DNA of 64,000 nt, from the NCBI GenBank assembly GCA_035652395.1, contig DASRDX010000009.1, positions 62,642 to 126,641 of the forward strand, written 5' to 3'. The notes under the pieces were generated by a model. It was not told the origin of the DNA. It saw nothing but the letters and a program-made list of their open reading frames with translations, and ran no database searches. Positions 1,997-50,714 of the stretch are shown piece by piece (the stretch's first letter is position 1; each line of letters begins with the position of its first letter). The DNA comes from Minisyncoccota bacterium. GTDB lineage: Bacteria; Patescibacteriota; Minisyncoccia; Phycocordibacterales; CAJBRS01. Made by a program: the position numbers and the translations under genes.

Positions 1997-2082
1997 CACG
2001 CCAGAGCTCTCACTTTGTTTGAGACCGCTCCAGGGGCGCTTGCCCGAGTCTTAGTCTCAAACAAAGTGAGAGCTCTGGCGTG
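1997..2082. repeat. Perfect 29-bp inverted repeat (arms 1997-2025 and 2054-2082, 28-nt spacer) between RNase J stop and MFS start
   Basis: CACGCCAGAGCTCTCACTTTGTTTGAGAC ... GTCTCAAACAAAGTGAGAGCTCTGGCGTG read directly. It sits 13 nt upstream of the MFS ATG on the minus strand. No clear U-tract follows on either strand. Confidence 0.6.
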
Positions 2083-12124: not shown

Positions 12125-12305
12125 TTTGTTTAAAAATCCGAGGGGATTCGCCCGCGAGTAAATTTTTGCTACCCGCAAAAATTTCTCTGGGCACCGGCTC
12201 GCGGCCTCGCGTGCTCGCTCGGCATCCGCTCCGCCATTCGAATCCCTCCCTCTCAGAGTCAGACGCCTTGCCGCAGAGTGATGCAGATCACTCTTTGCAA
12301 GTCGT

Positions 12306-12394
12306 TGCGGAGAGGGAGGGATTCGAACCCTCGGTACCCTTACGAGCACACAGACTTTCCAGGTCTGCCCATTCAACCACTCTGGCACCTCTCC
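12306..12394 (-). tRNA. tRNA-Ser (anticodon GGA), type II with long variable arm
   Basis: The reverse complement reads GGAGAGGTGCCAGAGTGGTTGAATGGGCAGACCTGGAAAGTCTG...GGTTCGAATCCCTCCCTCTCCG. Anticodon stem CAGAC/GTCTG, loop CTGGAAA. Confidence 0.85.
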
Positions 12395-25330: not shown

Positions 25331-25365
25331 GTTATAAAGGAGCAAGTTTATAAAGTTGTAATCAG

Positions 25366-25396
25366 GATTAAAGGCGCCGGCAAAGCCGGCGCCTTT
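25366..25396 (+). terminator. Intrinsic terminator
   Basis: AAAGGCGCCGGCAAAGCCGGCGCCTTTAAT. Confidence 0.7.
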
Positions 25397-25719
25397 AATA
25401 TAAAAATATAAAAGGAAACGACCGCGGCCCAGAGGCAGCGGTCGTTTGTTTCGAAGTGGTTGCAATGTCTGGTCAGCGGGTCGACCTCAGAAAACACGAT
25501 AGTAATACACTGGATTACTGCCTACTCGTTATCCTTAGTTGATCGGCATCTCGAGACAAGTTGTGCGAAACGTCCTTTGCTTCGAACATTGGTCTAGACA
25601 AGGTCTAGACCGTCGGATCGTGGCAATGGAGCATTGGTCTAAATAGATATTCTACAGAGGAATAAGATTTTTACTAGCCAGTTTTCCACACCATCACTTT
25701 TCTTTGCTATAATCGATTT

Positions 25720-32552: not shown

Positions 32553-32962
32553 TTTCTCTTTGGATCTGTAAGCCGAATTCTGTGCGAGATAGGCGAAGTC
32601 GCTTTTCTCGTGACAATTATTTATCTGGGCCAGCTGTTACCAGCCGGCTCTAGCGGCACCCCCAGCCGTAGTTTTGAGATTTTAAAACAAAACTACGGTT
32701 GGGTACGGCCTTGCACAGGGGTAAGGATTTTGCCGTTTCACTCCCGAAATTACTTTCGGGCTTCGCCCTACAGACCATTCGCCTGTAGAGCGGCGGTTTT
32801 CTTTCGAAAACCGCCGTTTCTGTTCGCACCTCTTGGATTGCTCCAGACGGGCGTTACCCGCCACCTTTTCAAATTAATGAACTGTGTTCGGACTTTCCTC
32901 CCAATCATTTCTGACCGAGCAATTGTCCAATTCAAAGAGGCTAGAAGTATAATATAGGCCGT
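32553..32962 (-). ncRNA. rnpB: RNase P RNA, bacterial type A
   Basis: The minus strand carries GGGAGGAAAGUCCG (P4 5' strand, rc of 32889-32902), GGUAACGCC, GUGCGAACAGAAACGGCGG, and a 3' region CUGGCCCAGAUAAAUAAUUGUCACGA...CACAGAAUUCGGCUUACAG matching E. coli M1 RNA CUGGCCUAGAUGAAUGACUGUCCACGACAGAACCCGGCUUA. The region contains many nested hairpins. Exact ends are uncertain. Confidence 0.8.
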
Positions 32963-39587: not shown

Positions 39588-39980
39588 ATGCGGGAATTTC
39601 GAGAACGTAAAAAAATTAAGAAGCGCATCTATTCCAAGACAGTGGTAATAATTTTAGCTATTTTACTTGCTCTTTTAATTGAAGGGACCTGGAAAGTTTT
39701 CCAAAAAGAACGGGAGAGTGCGGCCAACTTGTGGCGAGTTAATAACCAGCTTTCGGAACTTCAGGCTCGAAATACCGCCCTGTCAGATGATGTGGCGGCC
39801 CTCCAGACTGATCAGGGGATTGAGAGTGAGATTCGCAGCAAATATCAGGTGGCCAAGTCAGGGGAGCAGGTCATAGTCATTGTGGACAAGGATAATACAG
39901 CTAGTTCAACTCCTCCCGGTAATTTCTTAGTCCGCTGGTGGGATAATTTTCTTAGTCTTTTTAAAAGAAAGACTAAATAG
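39588..39980 (+). CDS. ftsB: Septum formation initiator family protein (FtsB/DivIC-like)
   Basis: Single N-terminal TM then coiled coil NQLSELQARNTALSDDVAALQTDQGIESEIRSKY. Confidence 0.6.
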   Translation: MREFRERKKIKKRIYSKTVVIILAILLALLIEGTWKVFQKERESAANLWRVNNQLSELQARNTALSDDVAALQTDQGIESEIRSKYQVAKSGEQVIVIVDKDNTASSTPPGNFLVRWWDNFLSLFKRKTK

Positions 39981-40024
39981 CGAGATTAGTTCAATGGTAG
40001 AACACATGCTTCCCACCCCGACAG
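39980..40024 (+). pseudogene. Truncated 5' half of a tRNA-Gly-like gene (acceptor, D-arm, anticodon 5' stem and loop only)
   Basis: GCGAGATTAGTTCAATGGTAGAACACATGCTTCCCAC, then a non-tRNA sequence. Parallel to the intact tRNA-Gly 8 nt downstream. Confidence 0.6.
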
Positions 40025-40031
40025 TAAAATT

Positions 40032-40102
40032 GCGAGTGTCGTATAGTGGTAATACGTCTGCTTCCCAAGCAGATAACGCGAGTTCGATTCTCGCCACTCG
40101 CA
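40032..40102 (+). tRNA. tRNA-Gly (anticodon CCC)
   Basis: GCGAGTGTCGTATAGTGGTAATACGTCTGCTTCCCAAGCAGATAACGCGAGTTCGATTCTCGCCACTCGCA, a cloverleaf with T-loop TTCGATT. Confidence 0.85.
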
Positions 40103-40139
40103 CTAATGTTAGATTCGCAATTTACCACAGGATAAGAGC

Positions 40140-40315
40140 ATGAAATTGGTTCAATAATTCTATGGCAATAAGCCTAACACTCGAATATTCGGACTATGAG
40201 AAATGTTTTTCCCGTATCTCGCACTTTACAGAGTTCGATAATTCTATGGCACCGAGCCCCAATATACGAATATTCGGACGATGAGAGATATTTTTCTCGC
40301 CACTCGCACTAATTA
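40140..40315 (+). repeat. Two degenerate tRNA-derived repeat units (about 87 nt each) containing TAATTCTATGGCA and CGAATATTCGGAC; unit 2 ends with a 19-nt copy of the tRNA-Gly 3' end
   Basis: 40151-40195 and 40231-40280 share GTTCGATAATTCTATGGCA...CGAATATTCGGAC. 40296-40314 TCTCGCCACTCGCACTAAT is identical to 40090-40108. Confidence 0.6.
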
Positions 40316-42065: not shown

Positions 42066-42110
42066 GCCCTCGTAGTTCAATGGAGAACAACACCCCGCCT
42101 AAGGGTATAA
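42066..42110 (+). pseudogene. Truncated 5' half of a tRNA-Arg-like gene
   Basis: CCCTCGTAGTTCAATGGAGAACAACACCCCGCCTAAGGGT parallels positions 1-45 of the adjacent tRNA-Arg but lacks the T-arm. Confidence 0.55.
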
Positions 42111-42116
42111 TTATTT

Positions 42117-42189
42117 GCTCCTGTAGTTCAACGGATAGAACGGATCCGTCCTAAGGATTTAATGTAGGTTCAATTCCTACCAGGAGCAC
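42117..42189 (+). tRNA. tRNA-Arg (anticodon CCT)
   Basis: GCTCCTGTAGTTCAACGGATAGAACGGATCCGTCCTAAGGATTTAATGTAGGTTCAATTCCTACCAGGAGCA. Confidence 0.8.
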
Positions 42190-43383: not shown

Positions 43384-43456
43384 GCCGAGGTAGCTCAGTT
43401 GGTAGAGCATTTGCCTGAAGAGCAAGGGGTCGCCGGTTCGAGCCCGGCCCTCGGCA
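43384..43456 (+). tRNA. tRNA-Phe (anticodon GAA)
   Basis: GCCGAGGTAGCTCAGTTGGTAGAGCATTTGCCTGAAGAGCAAGGGGTCGCCGGTTCGAGCCCGGCCCTCGGCA. Confidence 0.9.
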
Positions 43457-43500
43457 CTAAAATAATAACCGCCAATTCTAATTGGCGGTTATTATTTTAG
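43457..43500. terminator. 21-bp perfect palindrome after tRNA-Phe (bidirectional terminator-like)
   Basis: CTAAAATAATAACCGCCAATT CT AATTGGCGGTTATTATTTTAG. Confidence 0.6.
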
Positions 43501-43607
43501 TGCCGTAAAGTCCGTATAGCTTAAGCAATTATGTGGCAAGAAGCTATTAACCTCCAAAATTCAAACAATGAGAAGTATTTTCCGGCCCTCGACTTTGTAT
43601 AATTGAT

Positions 43608-47581: not shown

Positions 47582-48165
47582 TAGGAAAATTCTAGCAAAA
47601 ATAAGGGTTTTTTGGAATTGGGAGGGCGGCGAGCTTCGCTCGCCGCCCTTTATATAAAAGAAAAGAGCCGCATAATTTCATTTGTCAATCATGAAATTAT
47701 GCGGCTCGGCAAGTTGGTAAGTCTATCGAGCACTTCAACCAACTGCAGCGGTCCGTGGTGCGAAAACCATCTGTGACTCAGAGCTTGCGCCGGGGCGATA
47801 AGCGAAGGCGCTAAAAAGTCGACTCGGAGTCACAGCAAGAGAAATCCCGTCCCCGCGTCGCCAAGTTAGTCGATGCCAGCGATGGTCTGCTAGCCGGCGA
47901 CGCGGGGTTGCATTCCTCTGCGATAAGTCAGGGCCAGATCTAATCGGCTGGCACAAGGTCATCAACAAGACTAATCGCAGGTATCGATGCCGACTAAATG
48001 TCGGCGAAAATGTTGCGAGGGTTCTACGTCGCCAAGGTTAAGATGGTTGCGATAGTAAATAGTAAACAAATTAGCACCCTTTTCCTAACCCGAACCCTCG
48101 CCGATGAGAAATCGTCAAAGTCCAAATTCTCCTATAGTATAGCACATTCTAAAAAATAGTCAAGA
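47582..48165 (-). promoter_or_regulatory. Long structured leader/ncRNA between tsaD and valS with promoter TTGACT-16-TATACT (48163-48136) and an intrinsic terminator (47715-47665, 17-bp stem plus UUUUCUUUU)
   Basis: There is no ORF. Multiple long-range inverted repeats occur, e.g. CCCCGCGTCGCC/GGCGACGCGGGG, GCGAGGGTTC/GAACCCTCGC, TGTGACTC/GAGTCACA. The terminator is immediately upstream of valS. Confidence 0.45.
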
Positions 48166-48177
48166 GGGGCGCCGGCC

Positions 48178-49364
48178 TTATTTTAAAGCCAGATTTCCAG
48201 TTGCTTTGAAATCCAAGGAAGCCGATTTTTTGTTCAAATAATTGAAATATCCGGCTACGGCAATCATGACGGCGTTATCAGTAGAGAGAGATGAATGAGG
48301 AATTAAGAGTTCGGAATCAGGAAAGTCTAAAATCAGGGCCTGAAAAGCTTCCCGAATATGTTTATTGGCAATAACTCCACCTCCAACAATTAAAGTTTTG
48401 GCGCCAAATTCTTCCAGCGCCCGTTTAGTTTTTGAGACCAAGACTTCAGTTACGGCTTCTTCGAACTCTCTGGCCAGTTGAACTTTCCAGTTTGGGTTTT
48501 CTTTTTCAGTATTTGTCATACTGCGTAGACGATAAAGAACTGCCGTTTTTAATCCGGCGAAAGAGAAATCATAATCTTTGGATTTGATCATCGGTCGCGG
48601 CAAGTTGGCAATTGAACCGCCACCGTGCCGCGCCCGTGCTTCTTCTGCCAATTTTGAAATCTCCGGCCCGCCAGGATAGGGCAGTTCCATCATTCGAGCC
48701 ACCTTGTCAAAAGCTTCGCCCACGGCATCATCTCGGGTCTGTCCGAGAATTTCGTATTTCTGCCAGTCTTTCATCAAAACCAGTTCCGTATGACCGCCGC
48801 TGATAAGAAGAGCAACTGCTGGAAATTTAAAACTCTCAACTTTTAACTTTGAATTCTCCGATTTTGTCAGATCGGATTCTAAAAGAACTGACAGAATGTG
48901 TCCTTCCATATGATTGACGGCCACCACTGGCAAATCCCAGACTATCCCTAAGACCTTGGCAAAATTGATTCCTACCCAGAGAGCCGGTTCCAAGCCCGGG
49001 CCAACAGTAACGGCGATCGCTTCAAGGTCAGGTTTTGGTAGAGCCGGAAGTGCTGCTAGAAACTGTCGCAGCAATTCCGGCTCTCTTTCTAGAATTTTTT
49101 CAATCTCTTCTTGATTGAATTCTACTTTCAACTTTTGACTTTTAACTTCTGACTGGTCAAAAATCTTCTTTAAAAGAGGGATGAGATTTTTAGCATGCTC
49201 TCTCTTGGCCATCATCGGAAACACGCCTCCATATTTTTCATGGATTTTTGTTTGAGAATTAAGAGCTTCGGCCAAGATCTTGAAATGCGGCTTCGCGCCT
49301 CCTTCCGCTTCCACAATCGCCAAAGCCGTCTCATCACAGCTAGTTTCAATACCAAGAATTTTCA
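48178..49364 (-). CDS. tsaD: tRNA N6-threonylcarbamoyladenosine synthase TsaD (Kae1/YgjD family) with an internal ~40-aa insertion
   Basis: MKILGIETSCDETALAIV and HMEGH... signatures. The true start is the ATG at 49364, because the longer six-frame ORF overlaps tRNA-Val. Confidence 0.85.
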
Positions 49365-49366
49365 TT

Positions 49367-49439
49367 GTGCGCGGTGAGGGATTCGAACCCCCGGCATCAA
49401 CAACGTCAATGTTGCGCTCTACCAACTGAGCTAACCGCG
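49367..49439 (-). tRNA. tRNA-Val (anticodon GAC)
   Basis: rc: GCGCGGTTAGCTCAGTTGGTAGAGCGCAACATTGACGTTGTTGATGCCGGGGGTTCGAATCCCTCACCGCGCA. Confidence 0.85.
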
Positions 49440-49524
49440 CCTTTTATGAAATTTACCATTTTTCGGCGATAGAGGAAAAAGTTTTACCACAGTTTGCCAC
49501 ATACCTTGGAGTATCGGGCCTTCT

Positions 49525-49598
49525 TGCCATAGAATTACTCTTCACCTCTAACATCAACCACGTCAATGTTGCGCTCTACCAATTGAGCTAATCGCCCT
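49525..49598 (-). pseudogene. Truncated tRNA-Val 5' half followed by TAATTCTATGGCA-containing sequence
   Basis: rc of 49549-49598 is GGGCGATTAGCTCAATTGGTAGAGCGCAACATTGACGTGGTTGATG, then TTAGAGGTGAAGAGTAATTCTATGGCAAGAAGGCC. There is no T-arm. Confidence 0.6.
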
Positions 49599-49643
49599 TC
49601 TTTTGAATAATAAAGTCTTCCGAGCTTTTGGGCAAGAATCTGT

Positions 49644-50414
49644 TCAATGAATCTTTTTGTAATGTTTCAAGTAAGCCACGATGATGAAGCTGATTATAAC
49701 CATCAAAAACCAAGAGGTGATTTTGTTGGTAGAAACGACATTCCATACATGAACTTGATCGGGATATTGCCAGGCGCCCCAAAAAGTTGAAAGATTTTCG
49801 GCAACCCAAAGAAAGAAGGCGATGAGACAGAAGCCTAAAGCAAGCGGCATGGAGCGACGTCTTTCCGTAACTGTAAAGAAGACTTGAGTGCGGGCAAATA
49901 GAAGAAATACTGCCGGAATAAGTAGAATACGAAGATCCGGAATAAAGTGATTGGTGAAAAAGTTAAGGTAAATTAAAACTCCCAGCACTAACATGGCCGG
50001 ATAATTTGGTGGCTCTTCCAGTTCAAGTTTCAGTATTCTCCAAGCTTGAGCAATGTAGCTTCCTACAGAGGCGTACATAAAACCGGCAAAGAGCGGCACG
50101 GTAGCGATTTTAAAGATAGCCGCTTCGGGATAACTCCATGAGCCGATAGCTGGATTAGTCTTGAAAACTTCCAAAAGAGTTCCAATAAGGTGAAAGAGAA
50201 AAATAGTTTTGATCTCATCCCATGTCTCGATTTTTGTCAGAAATAGAATAATCTGCAAAAGAACCGCCGATAAAAAGAGAAAATCGTATCTCGCCAAACC
50301 AAAAAGGGGAATGTGATTTGAAAGAAATAAAAGAGCAAAAAATGAGCCCGCAAAAATGCAGGCACGGGCTTCTTTTATGATGAAGATCATGAATTCTCGA
50401 GCAAGTTTTTTCAT
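49644..50414 (-). CDS. DUF817 family membrane protein
   Basis: 256 aa, polytopic. IKEARACIFAGSFFALLFLS...FHLIGTLLEVFKT resembles DUF817. Confidence 0.6.
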   Translation of the reverse strand: MKKLAREFMIFIIKEARACIFAGSFFALLFLSNHIPLFGLARYDFLFLSAVLLQIILFLTKIETWDEIKTIFLFHLIGTLLEVFKTNPAIGSWSYPEAAIFKIATVPLFAGFMYASVGSYIAQAWRILKLELEEPPNYPAMLVLGVLIYLNFFTNHFIPDLRILLIPAVFLLFARTQVFFTVTERRRSMPLALGFCLIAFFLWVAENLSTFWGAWQYPDQVHVWNVVSTNKITSWFLMVIISFIIVAYLKHYKKIH

Positions 50415-50423
50415 GAAATATTG

Positions 50424-50495
50424 TGACCCTACCGGGAATCGAACCCGGATTACCAGCTTGAAAAGCTGATGTCCTAACCGTTAGACGATAGGGCC
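50424..50495 (-). tRNA. tRNA-Glu (anticodon TTC)
   Basis: rc: GGCCCTATCGTCTAACGGTTAGGACATCAGCTTTTCAAGCTGGTAATCCGGGTTCGATTCCCGGTAGGGTCA. Confidence 0.85.
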
Positions 50496-50562
50496 GTAAA
50501 AATAGCTTTTAAAATATAGCATTTTTTGTTCAAACGACAAAAAATGCTACGATTTTCAGACT

Positions 50563-50649
50563 GGAGGAGTGGCTGAGTGGTTGAAGGCACCAGTTTCGAA
50601 AACTGGCATGTGGGAAACCGCATCAGAGGTTCGAATCCTCTCTCCTCCG
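50563..50649 (+). tRNA. tRNA-Ser (anticodon CGA), type II
   Basis: GGAGGAGTGGCTGAGTGGTTGAAGGCACCAGTTTCGAAAACTGG, long variable arm, GAGGTTCGAATCCTCTCTCCTCCG. Confidence 0.85.
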
Positions 50650-50714
50650 CATCGTCGAGATAGGTCACCCCGCACGAGGAGCGTCATTTTGATTTACTCT
50701 GATACAATTTAACC

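What the first reader, a model, noticed from the sequence alone, without database searches (positions are those of the whole stretch)
49367..49600. tRNA-Val followed by a second truncated tRNA-Val 5' half joined to the TAATTCTATGGCA motif
On the minus strand, a near-identical copy of tRNA-Val positions 1-46 (GGGCGATTAGCTCAATTGGTAGAGCGCAACATTGACGTGGTTGATG) lacks the T-arm. It continues into TTAGAGGTGAAGAGTAATTCTATGGCAAGAAGGCC, about 110 nt upstream of the intact tRNA-Val(GAC). The intact tRNA-Val itself abuts the tsaD start codon by 2 nt.

The pattern is the same as at the Gly and Arg loci: a 5' fragment upstream of the intact gene. It links this locus to the 13-mer element at 40157 and 40240.
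Basis: seen in the sequence. Interest (0 to 1): 0.65.

Follow-up and report, generated by a model that had tools for sequence, protein, structure and literature searches.

The report
Short insert splitting tRNA T-loops
The "truncated" tRNA-Val is a whole but dead tRNA gene, split in its T-loop by a 62-base insert; three related inserts split other tRNA gene copies nearby, and each broken copy has an intact twin next to it.

Summary
The observed sequence is real, but "truncated, lacks the T-arm" is wrong. The upstream tRNA-Val copy (minus strand, 49597-49463) is full length. Its T-stem 5' strand AGAGG is followed by a 62-nt insert, E3. E3 starts with TAATTCTATGGCA and ends in TTTTT. The T-stem 3' strand CCTCT and the acceptor 3' strand ATCGCCG follow it.

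E3 belongs to a four-member family of 56-62 nt: E1 and E2 at the Gly locus, and a new E4 downstream of tRNA-Phe. All four lie in the same orientation in the 3' half of a tRNA T-loop. Every interrupted copy is decayed or fragmentary and lies within about 250 nt of an intact gene with the same anticodon.

Related Parcubacteria carry single, uninterrupted genes at the same syntenic places. E has no Rfam match and no consensus secondary structure. No real relative turned up in the viral, genome, metagenome, phage or plasmid searches.

Best reading (about 0.5): a genome-specific, non-autonomous, T-loop-targeting insertion sequence has killed tRNA gene copies, and backup or replacement copies carry the function. 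Weaker rivals are integrase scars, templated local insertion, or an intron. Moderately interesting; mobility and RNA fate are untested.

The parts
49538..49597 (-). Val' 5' portion: acceptor 5' strand GGGCGAT, D-arm, anticodon arm (GAC), variable region, T-stem 5' strand AGAGG (49549-49545), and a degenerate 5' part of the T-loop, TGAAGAG (49544-49538)
   Evidence: Read directly. 42/46 identical to the intact Val. Partial Rfam tRNA hit at 16.6 bits. Acceptor and T-stem sequences are those of the single tRNA-Val in relatives L001, L166 and L167.
49476..49537 (-). E3: 62-nt insert in the T-loop, starting with TAATTCTATGGCA and ending in TTTTT
   Evidence: No Rfam match.
49463..49475 (-). Val' 3' portion: T-stem 3' strand CCTCT, acceptor 3' strand ATCGCCG, discriminator A
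   Evidence: Complementary to AGAGG and GGGCGAT, with a G1/G72 mismatch. 11/12 identical to the 3' end of L001 tRNA-Val.
49607..49635 (-). Promoter-like site (TTGCCC, 17-nt spacer, TATTAT) about 10 nt upstream of Val'
   Evidence: Consensus scan only; function not shown.
49367..49440 (-). Intact tRNA-Val(GAC), acceptor GCGCGGT/ACCGCGC; 2 nt before the tsaD ATG
   Evidence: ARAGORN; Rfam 69.8 bits. The same allele abuts tsaD in relative L172, and the same allele lies inverted in L168.
48178..49365 (-). tsaD
   Evidence: 100% identical to P0001 / HZS42735.1; Pfam PF00814.
39980..40016 (+). Gly A, piece 1: positions 1-38 (acceptor GCGAGAT, anticodon CCC). Its first base is the last base of the DivIC stop codon.
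   Evidence: The acceptor is identical to that of L166 tRNA-Gly. ARAGORN calls tRNA-Gly(CCC) when the three pieces are joined in silico.
40032..40103 (+). Intact tRNA-Gly(CCC) 'B', lying inside a 121-nt insert (40017-40137) in the anticodon loop of Gly A
   Evidence: ARAGORN; Rfam 70.8 bits; sequence.
40138..40154 (+). Gly A, piece 2: anticodon-stem 3' strand GCATG, variable region, weak T-stem 5' strand, T-loop TTCAA
40155..40210 (+). E1: 56-nt insert in the T-loop of Gly A
40211..40223 (+). Gly A, piece 3: T-stem 3' strand CCCGT, acceptor 3' strand ATCTCGC, discriminator A
   Evidence: Perfect complement of GCGAGAT at 39980.
40228..40238 (+). Gly B' fragment, left part: ..ACAGAGTTCGA (T-stem 5' strand and T-loop positions 54-58 of B)
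   Evidence: GAGTTCGA is identical to B at 40076-40083.
40239..40295 (+). E2: 57-nt insert in the T-loop of the B' fragment
   Evidence: 46/57 identical to E1.
40296..40313 (+). Gly B' fragment, right part: CTCGC CACTCGC A plus CTAAT, identical to the 3' end and first 5 trailer bases of intact B. It is followed by the flank that follows tRNA-Gly in L001.
   Evidence: 12/12 match; flank comparison.
42066..42110 (+). Arg' 5' fragment (positions about 1-47, decayed; acceptor GCCCTCG as in L001 and L166), directly upstream of the intact gene. No T-arm is left, so it cannot be known whether an E was once there.
42117..42189 (+). Intact tRNA-Arg(CCT), acceptor GCTCCTG
43384..43457 (+). Intact tRNA-Phe(GAA)
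43526..43581 (+). E4: 56-nt family member downstream of tRNA-Phe and its terminator palindrome. Its 13-mer has 3 mismatches (CAATTATGTGGCA).
   Evidence: After the 13-mer it shares 33/43 with E1 and 33/49 with E3; no shuffle out of 1000 reached either value.
43582..43593 (+). Phe' 3' fragment CCGGCCCTCGAC: T-stem 3' strand plus acceptor 3' strand of tRNA-Phe, 11/12

Best explanation
The upstream 'half' tRNA-Val is a complete tRNA-Val(GAC) gene that has been inactivated. A 62-nt sequence, E3, sits in the 3' half of its T-loop, after position 58 or 59.

E3 is one of four related 56-62-nt sequences in this 64-kb window. Each lies in the same orientation at the same sub-site of a different tRNA gene copy: Val', Gly A, a 3' fragment of Gly B, and a 3' fragment of Phe.

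I read E as a small, non-autonomous, site-specific insertion sequence. It is, or was, moved by an enzyme encoded elsewhere in the genome, and it recognises the conserved T-arm (GTTCRA...) of tRNA genes, probably at the DNA level. An insertion destroys the T-loop, so it can only persist where a second gene with the same anticodon exists. That second gene may be a tandem duplicate (Phe, Gly B) or another allele of the kind seen in related Parcubacteria (Val, Gly, Arg). The intact neighbour supplies the tRNA and the interrupted copy decays.

Shown here: the anatomy; the four-member family; the common orientation and site; the decay and redundancy of interrupted copies; the absence of E and of second copies in relatives; the lack of any known RNA family match or conserved fold.

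Inferred: that E is mobile DNA; what moves it; that interrupted copies are not expressed as working tRNA; the order of events.
For: 1. T-stem and acceptor strands flank E on both sides in Val' and Gly A. In B' the left flank carries the T-stem 5' strand and T-loop, and the right flank the T-stem and acceptor 3' strands. Phe' keeps only the 3' side clearly.

2. The four members align over their full length. Similarity beyond the 13-mer is significant in 5 of 6 pairs against shuffles. All four have the 13-mer end towards the 5' side of the T-loop.

3. Three exact copies of a 13-mer are present where about 0.002 is expected.

4. Three syntenic relatives (L001, L166, L167) have one uninterrupted tRNA each for Val, Gly, Arg and Phe, with no E.

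5. The interrupted copies look dead:
- Val' has mismatches at 1-72 and 31-39 and a T-loop without TTC, and ARAGORN never calls it after E3 is removed in silico.
- Gly A is split by a whole tRNA gene.
- B', Phe' and Arg' are fragments.

6. Every interrupted copy has an intact gene with the same anticodon within about 250 nt.

7. There is no Rfam match and RNAalifold finds no consensus pairs. This argues against a ribozyme or structured intron.
Against: - No transposase, integrase or reverse transcriptase was found among 28 window ORFs scanned. Only 64 kb of a 462,702-bp contig is visible.
- E has no terminal inverted repeats and no clear target-site duplication, so it fits no defined transposon class.
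- No copy was found in any other genome or metagenome, so neither mobility nor an empty site within the species is shown.
- The copies are diverged (65-81% pairwise identity), yet the 13-mer is exact in three. Simple neutral decay of dead copies does not predict this.
- tRNA-Phe is normally single-copy and essential, so a spare must have existed before the insertion, or the two events are coupled in a way this model does not explain.
- The model does not explain how the intact replacement genes came to lie exactly beside, or inside, the broken ones.
Confidence: 0.5

Rival explanations
1. Scars of site-specific integration. Tyrosine-integrase elements that target tRNA genes at the T-loop or anticodon loop integrated repeatedly, brought replacement tRNA sequence, and were later reduced by deletion. 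On this view E is what remains of the element arm next to the crossover, and the tRNA pieces are displaced att fragments.
For: - The breakpoints fall where integrases cross over. Gly A is broken at anticodon-loop position 37/38 or 38/39, B' starts near the T-stem, and E lies in the T-loop. Islander counts attP sites centred on the anticodon loop, and sites in the T-stem region (T-loop and T-stem/acceptor junction pooled), plus 159 islands with 5' fragments against 3760 with 3' fragments (PMC4383910).
- B' and Phe' are 3' fragments downstream of an intact gene of the same sequence. B' shares 5 trailer bases with intact B and carries the native right-hand flank.
- An inverted 3' fragment of tRNA-Ser(GGA) starts exactly at T54.
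Against: - There is no island and no integrase. The pieces are only 4-150 nt apart.
- In an attR site the core and the displaced 3' part are contiguous. Here E lies between T-loop position 58 and 59/60, with T-loop sequence on both sides.
- The anticodon-loop sequence is not duplicated at the two ends of the insert in Gly A.
- Four remnants of nearly equal length (56-62 nt) are not expected from independent deletions.
Confidence: 0.15
2. Templated local insertion. E arose from the sequence just downstream of the ancestral tRNA-Val, namely the Val-tsaD spacer plus the first ~45 nt of tsaD. It was copied into T-loops by replication template switching or short-homology conversion. The TTCGA of the T-loop and a TTCGA that follows the tRNA in relatives would serve as microhomology.
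For: - In L001 the tRNA-Val is followed by CCA TTCGA TAAACTCATGGCAAGCAA ATG(tsaD).
- The best local alignment of E3 anywhere in the 21-kb L001 locus is exactly this stretch (score 36, above 2000 shuffles).
- CTCATGGCAA also lies upstream of tsaD in L169. It occurs only 3 times in 1.4 Mb of fetched loci.
Against: - Equally high scores (34-40) arise by chance for other E-versus-locus comparisons.
- E1, E2 and E4 show no significant similarity to the spacer or to tsaD.
- A profile of the tsaD 5' end from nine genomes does not find any E in the window. The E profile does not find the L001 spacer.
- The model does not explain why inserts at Gly and Phe resemble E3 rather than their own downstream flanks.
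Confidence: 0.1
3. Intervening sequence removed from the RNA. E is a new kind of bacterial tRNA intron in the T-loop, and the interrupted genes still give working tRNAs.
For: - The T-loop is a known intron site. Bacterial tmRNA genes carry group I introns in the T-psi-C loop (PMC11915505). Crenarchaeal tRNA genes carry introns at non-standard positions (PMC3241643, abstract seen).
- Group I introns are frequent in Patescibacteria, including in tRNA genes (PMC13011429).
- Gly A is called as tRNA-Gly(CCC) once both inserts are removed in silico.
- Val' changes at positions 15 and 48 (G15-C48 to A15-T48) keep the tertiary Levitt pair between the D-loop and the variable loop, read.
Against: - E is 56-62 nt, with no group I or other ribozyme match even at E <= 10 and no conserved fold.
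- The flanks form no bulge-helix-bulge (BHB) motif. In Val' the T-stem simply continues into a 7-bp helix.
- Val' is not called as a tRNA after E3 is removed at any junction tried.
- B' and Phe' are only fragments. Gly A would be cut in two when the inner tRNA is processed out.
- Every interrupted copy is redundant.
Confidence: 0.07
4. Assembly artefact. The tandem and nested tRNA copies are chimeric joins of strain variants in a metagenome-assembled genome.
For: - The source is a MAG.
- Two tRNA-Val alleles exist in the clade.
- Repeated tRNA sequence can confuse assemblers.
Against: - Four separate loci show the same precise anatomy. The E copies are diverged, and the tRNA halves on the two sides of each E match each other. 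Misassembly does not place a 60-nt family member inside a T-loop four times.
- The flanking genes are collinear with relatives.
Confidence: 0.03

Closest known systems
Miniature non-autonomous insertion sequences with strict target choice (MITEs; hairpin-end derivatives of IS200/IS605; IS110/IS1111-type site-specific elements). The properties of these families are from my own knowledge.
   Same: E is short, non-coding and present in several diverged copies of similar length in one genome. It has conserved ends (the 13-mer on one side, ACnATGAGA..TTTTT on the other), one fixed orientation, one fixed target sub-site, and no evident target duplication.
   Different: E has no terminal inverted repeats, no convincing subterminal hairpins and no partner transposase in view. 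At 56-62 nt it is shorter than described members of these families. The target is the T-loop of tRNA genes, which I could not find described for any such element.
Group I introns in the T-psi-C loop of bacterial tmRNA genes (PMC11915505) and in the anticodon loop of Patescibacteria tRNA genes (PMC13011429)
   Same: These are interruptions of a tRNA-like gene in a bacterium. In tmRNA they sit in the same loop. The tRNA case is in the same phylum.
   Different: Those introns are self-splicing ribozymes averaging about 290-410 nt, with U at -1 and G at the 3' end. E is 56-62 nt, ends in a T run, matches no intron model and has no conserved fold.
Archaeal tRNA introns at non-canonical positions, including the T-arm, cut at bulge-helix-bulge (BHB) motifs (PMC3241643, PMC3978253). 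That related introns recur in different archaeal tRNAs is from my own knowledge.
   Same: Short inserts at a loop position other than 37/38; related inserts in different tRNA genes; multi-piece tRNA genes such as Gly A.
   Different: There is no BHB motif at the boundaries. The host is bacterial (bacterial RNase P RNA; CPR proteins), and no splicing endonuclease is known there. The interrupted genes are decayed and redundant.
tRNA gene fragments left by genomic-island integration (Islander, PMC4383910; Williams 2002, as cited there)
   Same: Partial tRNA copies lie beside a regenerated intact gene, and the break points are in the anticodon loop and T-arm.
   Different: There is no island or integrase. 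The fragments lie a few to 150 nt from the intact gene. 5' fragments are prominent here, whereas they are rare in Islander (159 of 3919). The E sequence lies inside the loop rather than beside a contiguous fragment.

Membership tests
tRNA pseudogene (inactivated copy with an intact isoacceptor nearby) | Clear tRNA homology, but not detected as a tRNA | tested here: met
   Val' is 42/46 identical to the intact gene. ARAGORN does not call it, and it scores only 16.6 bits against Rfam tRNA, where the threshold is 29. It is not called after in-silico removal of E3 at any of 24 junction variants.
tRNA pseudogene (inactivated copy with an intact isoacceptor nearby) | Function covered by another gene with the same anticodon | tested here: met
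   Intact Val(GAC), Gly(CCC), Arg(CCT) and Phe(GAA) genes lie within about 250 nt of the broken copies.
Miniature non-autonomous transposable element | Several copies of similar length and sequence at different sites | tested here: met
   Four copies of 56-62 nt at three loci, in four different tRNA contexts.
Miniature non-autonomous transposable element | Terminal inverted repeats and target-site duplication | tested here: not met
   No inverted repeat was reported within E. RNAalifold finds no conserved pairing between the ends. The T-loop sequence is not duplicated across the insert.
Miniature non-autonomous transposable element | Presence/absence polymorphism (empty sites) in close relatives | tested here: inconclusive
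   Relatives with 57-67% TsaD identity have uninterrupted genes at the syntenic sites. No closer genome was available, and the window's own contig could not be fetched.
Miniature non-autonomous transposable element | An autonomous partner encoding the enzyme | not testable with these tools
   Only 64 kb of a 462,702-bp contig is visible. No such gene was found among 28 ORFs scanned.
Group I intron in a tRNA or tmRNA gene | Catalytic core recognisable by a covariance model; length of a few hundred nt | tested here: not met
   No intron family hit at E <= 10 around the elements or E <= 1 across the window. E is 56-62 nt.
Group I intron in a tRNA or tmRNA gene | U before the 5' splice site, G as the last intron base, and exons that rebuild the loop | tested here: not met
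   E ends in TTTTT with no G near its 3' end.
Archaeal-type BHB tRNA intron | Bulge-helix-bulge motif at the exon-intron junctions | tested here: not met
   In the Val' fold the T-stem continues, after one unpaired U, into a 7-bp helix (GAAGAGU with ACUUUUU) without 3-nt bulges. E1 and E2 show no common pairing.
Archaeal-type BHB tRNA intron | A splicing endonuclease in the genome | not testable with these tools
   The rest of the genome is not available.
Integrase att-site remnant (displaced tRNA fragment of a genomic island) | A fragment identical to part of the intact gene, marking the far end of an integrated element that carries an integrase | tested here: not met
   Fragments exist: B' matches 12/12 plus 5 trailer bases, and Phe' matches 11/12. 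But only 69-190 nt lies between the intact gene and the fragment, with no ORF.
Integrase att-site remnant (displaced tRNA fragment of a genomic island) | Break points at the anticodon loop or T-arm | tested here: met
   Gly A is broken at 37/38 or 38/39, B' starts at about position 47, and E lies in the T-loop. The Ser(GGA) fragment starts at T54.

The most novel reading that the evidence does not exclude
E is not junk. It would be a new kind of element that targets the loop of a tRNA gene's T-arm, in one of two forms. One form is mobile DNA moved by a hairpin- or loop-recognising enzyme not yet linked to tRNA genes. The other is a short bacterial intervening sequence removed from the RNA by an unknown, non-ribozyme route. 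Its spread would force continual replacement of tRNA genes in this very small genome. The nested and tandem 'old plus new' genes at Val, Gly, Arg and Phe would then be the visible record of that turnover. The exact conservation of the 13-mer in three otherwise diverged copies would mark the site the machinery recognises.
Probability: 0.12. Interest if true: 0.85.

Novelty: new variant of a known kind. Interest (0 to 1): 0.55.

Why it matters
I found no report of bacterial tRNA genes interrupted in the T-loop by anything other than large self-splicing introns in tmRNA genes.

If E is a site-specific insertion sequence aimed at the most conserved loop of tRNA genes, it is a new target class for small mobile DNA. 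Genes that cannot change their sequence would then be permanent targets. It would also explain why tRNA genes in these reduced genomes change allele, orientation and copy number while their neighbours stay put.

On the practical side, such loci are invisible to tRNA finders. An annotator would call the fragments spacers. A search for "missing" tRNAs in CPR genomes, as was needed for the position 35/36 introns, should include T-loop interruptions.

If E instead turns out to be removed from the RNA, it would be a new bacterial splicing or processing route.

Tried and rejected
1. Known RNA families. Rfam was run at gathering thresholds and at permissive E-values on the elements and on the whole window. 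Only tRNAs, RNase P RNA and chance hits came back.

2. Conserved RNA structure. Single folds and RNAalifold on four copies with flanks gave no consensus pairs.

3. Relatives of E elsewhere.
- The 13-mer plus context was scanned in viral contigs, giving 110 hits, about what I estimate chance would give.
- In GTDB genomes there were 50 hits from unrelated taxa. In JGI metagenomes there were 3 unrelated contigs.
- BLAST against phages and plasmids matched only the tRNA part.
- An E profile run on all fetched loci matched only the ~20-30 nt forced by the pattern, 47 of 58 at most and never the full length.

4. Phage origin of the intact tRNAs. Exact 25-31-mers of the intact Val, Gly B and Arg genes gave 0 viral matches.

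5. Fetching the window's own contig for more copies failed.

6. E derived from the tsaD leader. The idea is attractive by eye and by one pairwise score, but genome-wide score distributions and two profile searches do not support it.

7. An E-like hit next to tRNA-Phe in L166 lies inside the thymidylate kinase coding region, so I take it as chance.

8. [quoted passage not shown]. I held this until L168 and L172 showed the intact allele at the same locus in other relatives. Which allele is resident cannot be decided.

9. Short open reading frames starting at the ATG inside the 13-mer have different lengths (12-40 codons) and share no sequence beyond the first residues. I rejected them as genes (read).

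10. Mobile-element genes. Pfam scans of 28 ORFs found none.
Full report
**What is at the locus**

On the minus strand the window reads, from 49597 downwards:
- GGGCGAT TA GCTC AATTGGTA GAGC G CAACA TTGACGT GGTTG ATGTT AGAGG TGAAGAG
- then 62 nt beginning TAATTCTATGGCA and ending TTTTT (49537-49476)
- then CCTCT ATCGCCG A (49475-49463)
- then a 22-nt spacer
- then the intact tRNA-Val(GAC) at 49440-49367/8
- then CA and the tsaD ATG at 49365

ARAGORN and Rfam find only the downstream gene. The upstream copy gives a partial 16.6-bit tRNA hit.

The 13-mer is exact at 40155, 40239 and 49537.

The copy is therefore full length, and the 62 nt lies inside its T-loop. The 138 nt folds into a cloverleaf with a long T-arm.

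**A family of four**

Aligning the three 13-mer contexts shows similarity along 56-62 nt, ending each time in a T run that abuts the 3' strand of a T-stem.

At the Gly locus:
- E1 (40155-40210) lies between TGG TTCAA and CCCGT ATCTCGC A. That acceptor strand is the perfect partner of GCGAGAT at 39980, the start of the upstream "5' fragment".
- That fragment stops after the anticodon loop (TTCCCA). Its anticodon-stem 3' strand GCATG resumes at 40138.
- Between them lie 121 nt that contain the entire intact tRNA-Gly(CCC), here called B.
- Joining the three pieces in silico gives a sequence that ARAGORN calls tRNA-Gly(CCC).
- E2 (40239-40295) lies between GAGTTCGA and CTCGC CACTCGC A CTAAT. This is the T-arm and 3' end of B plus five trailer bases (12/12 match).

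A fourth member, E4 (43526-43581), lies downstream of tRNA-Phe. Its 13-mer has three mismatches. It is followed by CCGGCCCTCGAC, the T-stem and acceptor 3' strands of tRNA-Phe (11/12).

Beyond the 13-mer, five of the six pairs are more alike than shuffled controls. E1-E2 share 33/44, E1-E4 33/43 and E3-E4 33/49, and none of 1000 shuffles reached any of these values.

All four members have the same orientation relative to the tRNA and the same site, the 3' half of the T-loop.

The Arg locus has a decayed 5' fragment (42066-42110) that runs straight into the intact gene. Its T-arm is gone, so nothing can be said about an E there.

**Surroundings and relatives**

The window comes from a Parcubacteria (CPR) metagenome-assembled genome. 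Its TsaD is 100% identical to HZS42735.1, on a 462,702-bp contig.

The nearest available relative (L001, GCA_017881075.1, 66% TsaD identity) is collinear from MurJ and LepA to tsaD. It has one uninterrupted tRNA at each of the Gly, Arg, Phe and Val places. Two further relatives (L166, L167) show the same pattern.

The interrupted copies carry stems seen in these relatives:
- Val' has GGGCGAT/ATCGCC and AGAGG/CCTCT, as in L001, L166 and L167.
- Gly A has GCGAGAT/ATCTCGC, as in L166.
- Arg' has GCCCTCG, as in L001 and L166.

I first took this to mean that the intact genes were newcomers. But the intact Val allele (GCGCGGT...ACCGCGC) is the tRNA-Val that abuts tsaD in L172, and it lies inverted upstream of tsaD in L168. 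So both alleles circulate in the clade, and which one was resident here cannot be decided.

tRNA orientation also flips between relatives while the protein genes stay collinear. The Glu-Ser pair is inverted here relative to L001. tRNA genes in this group therefore turn over in place.

**What E is not**

- It matches no Rfam family, even at permissive thresholds.
- RNAalifold finds no pair common to the four copies. Single folds of E1 and E2 are no better than shuffles.
- There is no bulge-helix-bulge motif. In Val' the T-stem simply continues into a helix between GAAGAGU and ACUUUUU.
- It does not end in G, as a group I intron would.
- The short reading frames that start at the ATG within the 13-mer have unrelated products.
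- No real relative of E exists in IMG/VR, in one genome per GTDB species, in JGI metagenomes, or in the phage and plasmid collections. The pattern hits occur at roughly chance numbers. When scored with the E profile, none matches the full length; most stop within the 20-30 nt that the pattern itself fixed.

**What it most likely is**

Four diverged copies of one short sequence sit in one orientation at one sub-site of the T-loop in four different tRNA contexts. This is the mark of a site-specific insertion process rather than of chance, misassembly or local decay.

The interrupted copies are dead or dying:
- Val' has G1/G72 and A31/G39 mismatches and a T-loop that has lost TTC.
- Gly A is split by another gene.
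- B' and Phe' are stumps.

Each has a working twin beside it. I therefore read E as a small non-autonomous insertion sequence that targets the T-arm of tRNA genes, with insertions surviving only where a spare gene exists.

Three features fit elements that act on single strands or hairpin loops better than cut-and-paste transposons: the missing inverted repeats, the missing target duplication, and the fixed orientation. That comparison rests on my knowledge of those families, and no defining feature of any of them was shown here. My confidence in this reading is about 0.5.

**Rivals**

Integrase scars would account for the break points at the anticodon loop and T-arm, and for the 3' fragments downstream of intact genes (PMC4383910). 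They would not account for E lying within the loop, for the absence of any island, or for four inserts of equal length.

A local templated origin from the Val-tsaD spacer plus the start of tsaD is suggested by the best E3 hit in L001 falling exactly at the orthologous spot. It is also suggested by a CTCATGGCAA motif upstream of tsaD in two relatives. But equal scores arise by chance elsewhere, the other three copies show nothing, and two profile searches fail.

An intron is made unlikely by the size, the lack of fold, the decay and the redundancy. It is not excluded without RNA data. The T-loop is a known intron site in bacterial tmRNA genes (PMC11915505), and Patescibacteria tRNA genes often carry group I introns (PMC13011429).

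An assembly artefact cannot produce matching tRNA halves around diverged family members at four loci.

**Open points**

- The exact 13-mer in three copies that are otherwise 65-81% identical implies constraint or conversion acting on that end.
- How the intact genes came to lie exactly beside or inside the broken ones is unexplained.
- For the normally single-copy tRNA-Phe, a spare must have preceded the insertion, or duplication and insertion are coupled.

These points keep a more novel reading alive at roughly one chance in eight.

**Verdict**

The locus is one of four tRNA gene copies split in the T-loop by a genome-specific 56-62-nt element, each backed by an intact gene.

This is a new variant of known kinds of thing (small site-specific insertions, tRNA gene relics). 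It is moderately interesting, and decisive tests are available once the full genome, the reads or RNA data are in hand.

Noticed in passing
They lie beyond the terminator palindrome of the intact tRNA-Phe.
   Followed up: yes
window 43452-43505 (+): A perfect 26-nt inverted repeat with 2 nt between the arms. It begins inside the last 5 bases of tRNA-Phe (CGGCA). Its core (AACCGCC...GGCGGTT) resembles the terminator hairpin after tRNA-Phe in L167.
   Followed up: partly
window 12237-12254 (+), facing tRNA-Ser(GGA) at 12307-12394 (-): An inverted copy of the tRNA-Ser 3' end (TTCGAATCCCTCCCTCTC). It starts exactly at T54 of the T-loop, about 50 nt beyond the 3' end of the intact gene. This is another break point in a T-loop, without an E element.
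   Followed up: partly
window 50423-50650 and 49644-50414, compared with L001 9675-9863: The tRNA-Glu / tRNA-Ser(CGA) pair is inverted relative to L001. A DUF817 gene lies between that pair and the Val locus here but not in L001.
   Followed up: partly
L166 16212-16698; L167 16682-16755; L168 1-37: tRNA genes flip orientation between related genomes while the flanking protein genes stay collinear. Arg and Gly are on the opposite strand in L166, Gly in L167, and Val is divergent from tsaD in L168.
   Followed up: partly
L001 9987-9996; L169 36-45: The 10-mer CTCATGGCAA lies upstream of tsaD in two relatives, at different distances from the ATG. In each it starts a 4-codon frame (MASK, MATG) ending in TGA. 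It occurs only 3 times in 1.4 Mb of fetched loci. It resembles the 3' part of the E 13-mer.
   Followed up: partly
L001 9902-9977 and 15011-15086, compared with window 49367-49440 and 43384-43457: L001 encodes the 3' CCA for tRNA-Val and tRNA-Phe. The window's genes do not.
   Followed up: no
window 1997-2082: A perfect 29-nt inverted repeat with 28 nt between the arms, in an intergenic gap. It gives a spurious sub-threshold microRNA hit in Rfam.
   Followed up: no
window 32553-32938 (-): Bacterial class A RNase P RNA gene (142.7 bits). An ORF of 135 codons on the other strand overlaps it and is probably not a gene.
   Followed up: no
window 47582-48177: The gap between LeuRS and tsaD is 596 nt here against 215 nt in L001. 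There is no E, tRNA or Rfam family there, only a 77-codon ORF with no Pfam match.
   Followed up: partly
window 25545-25580 (+), within the 389-nt gap 25331-25719: Weak similarity (E = 0.08) to a profile of the first 54 nt of tsaD, in one of the largest non-coding gaps of the window.
   Followed up: no
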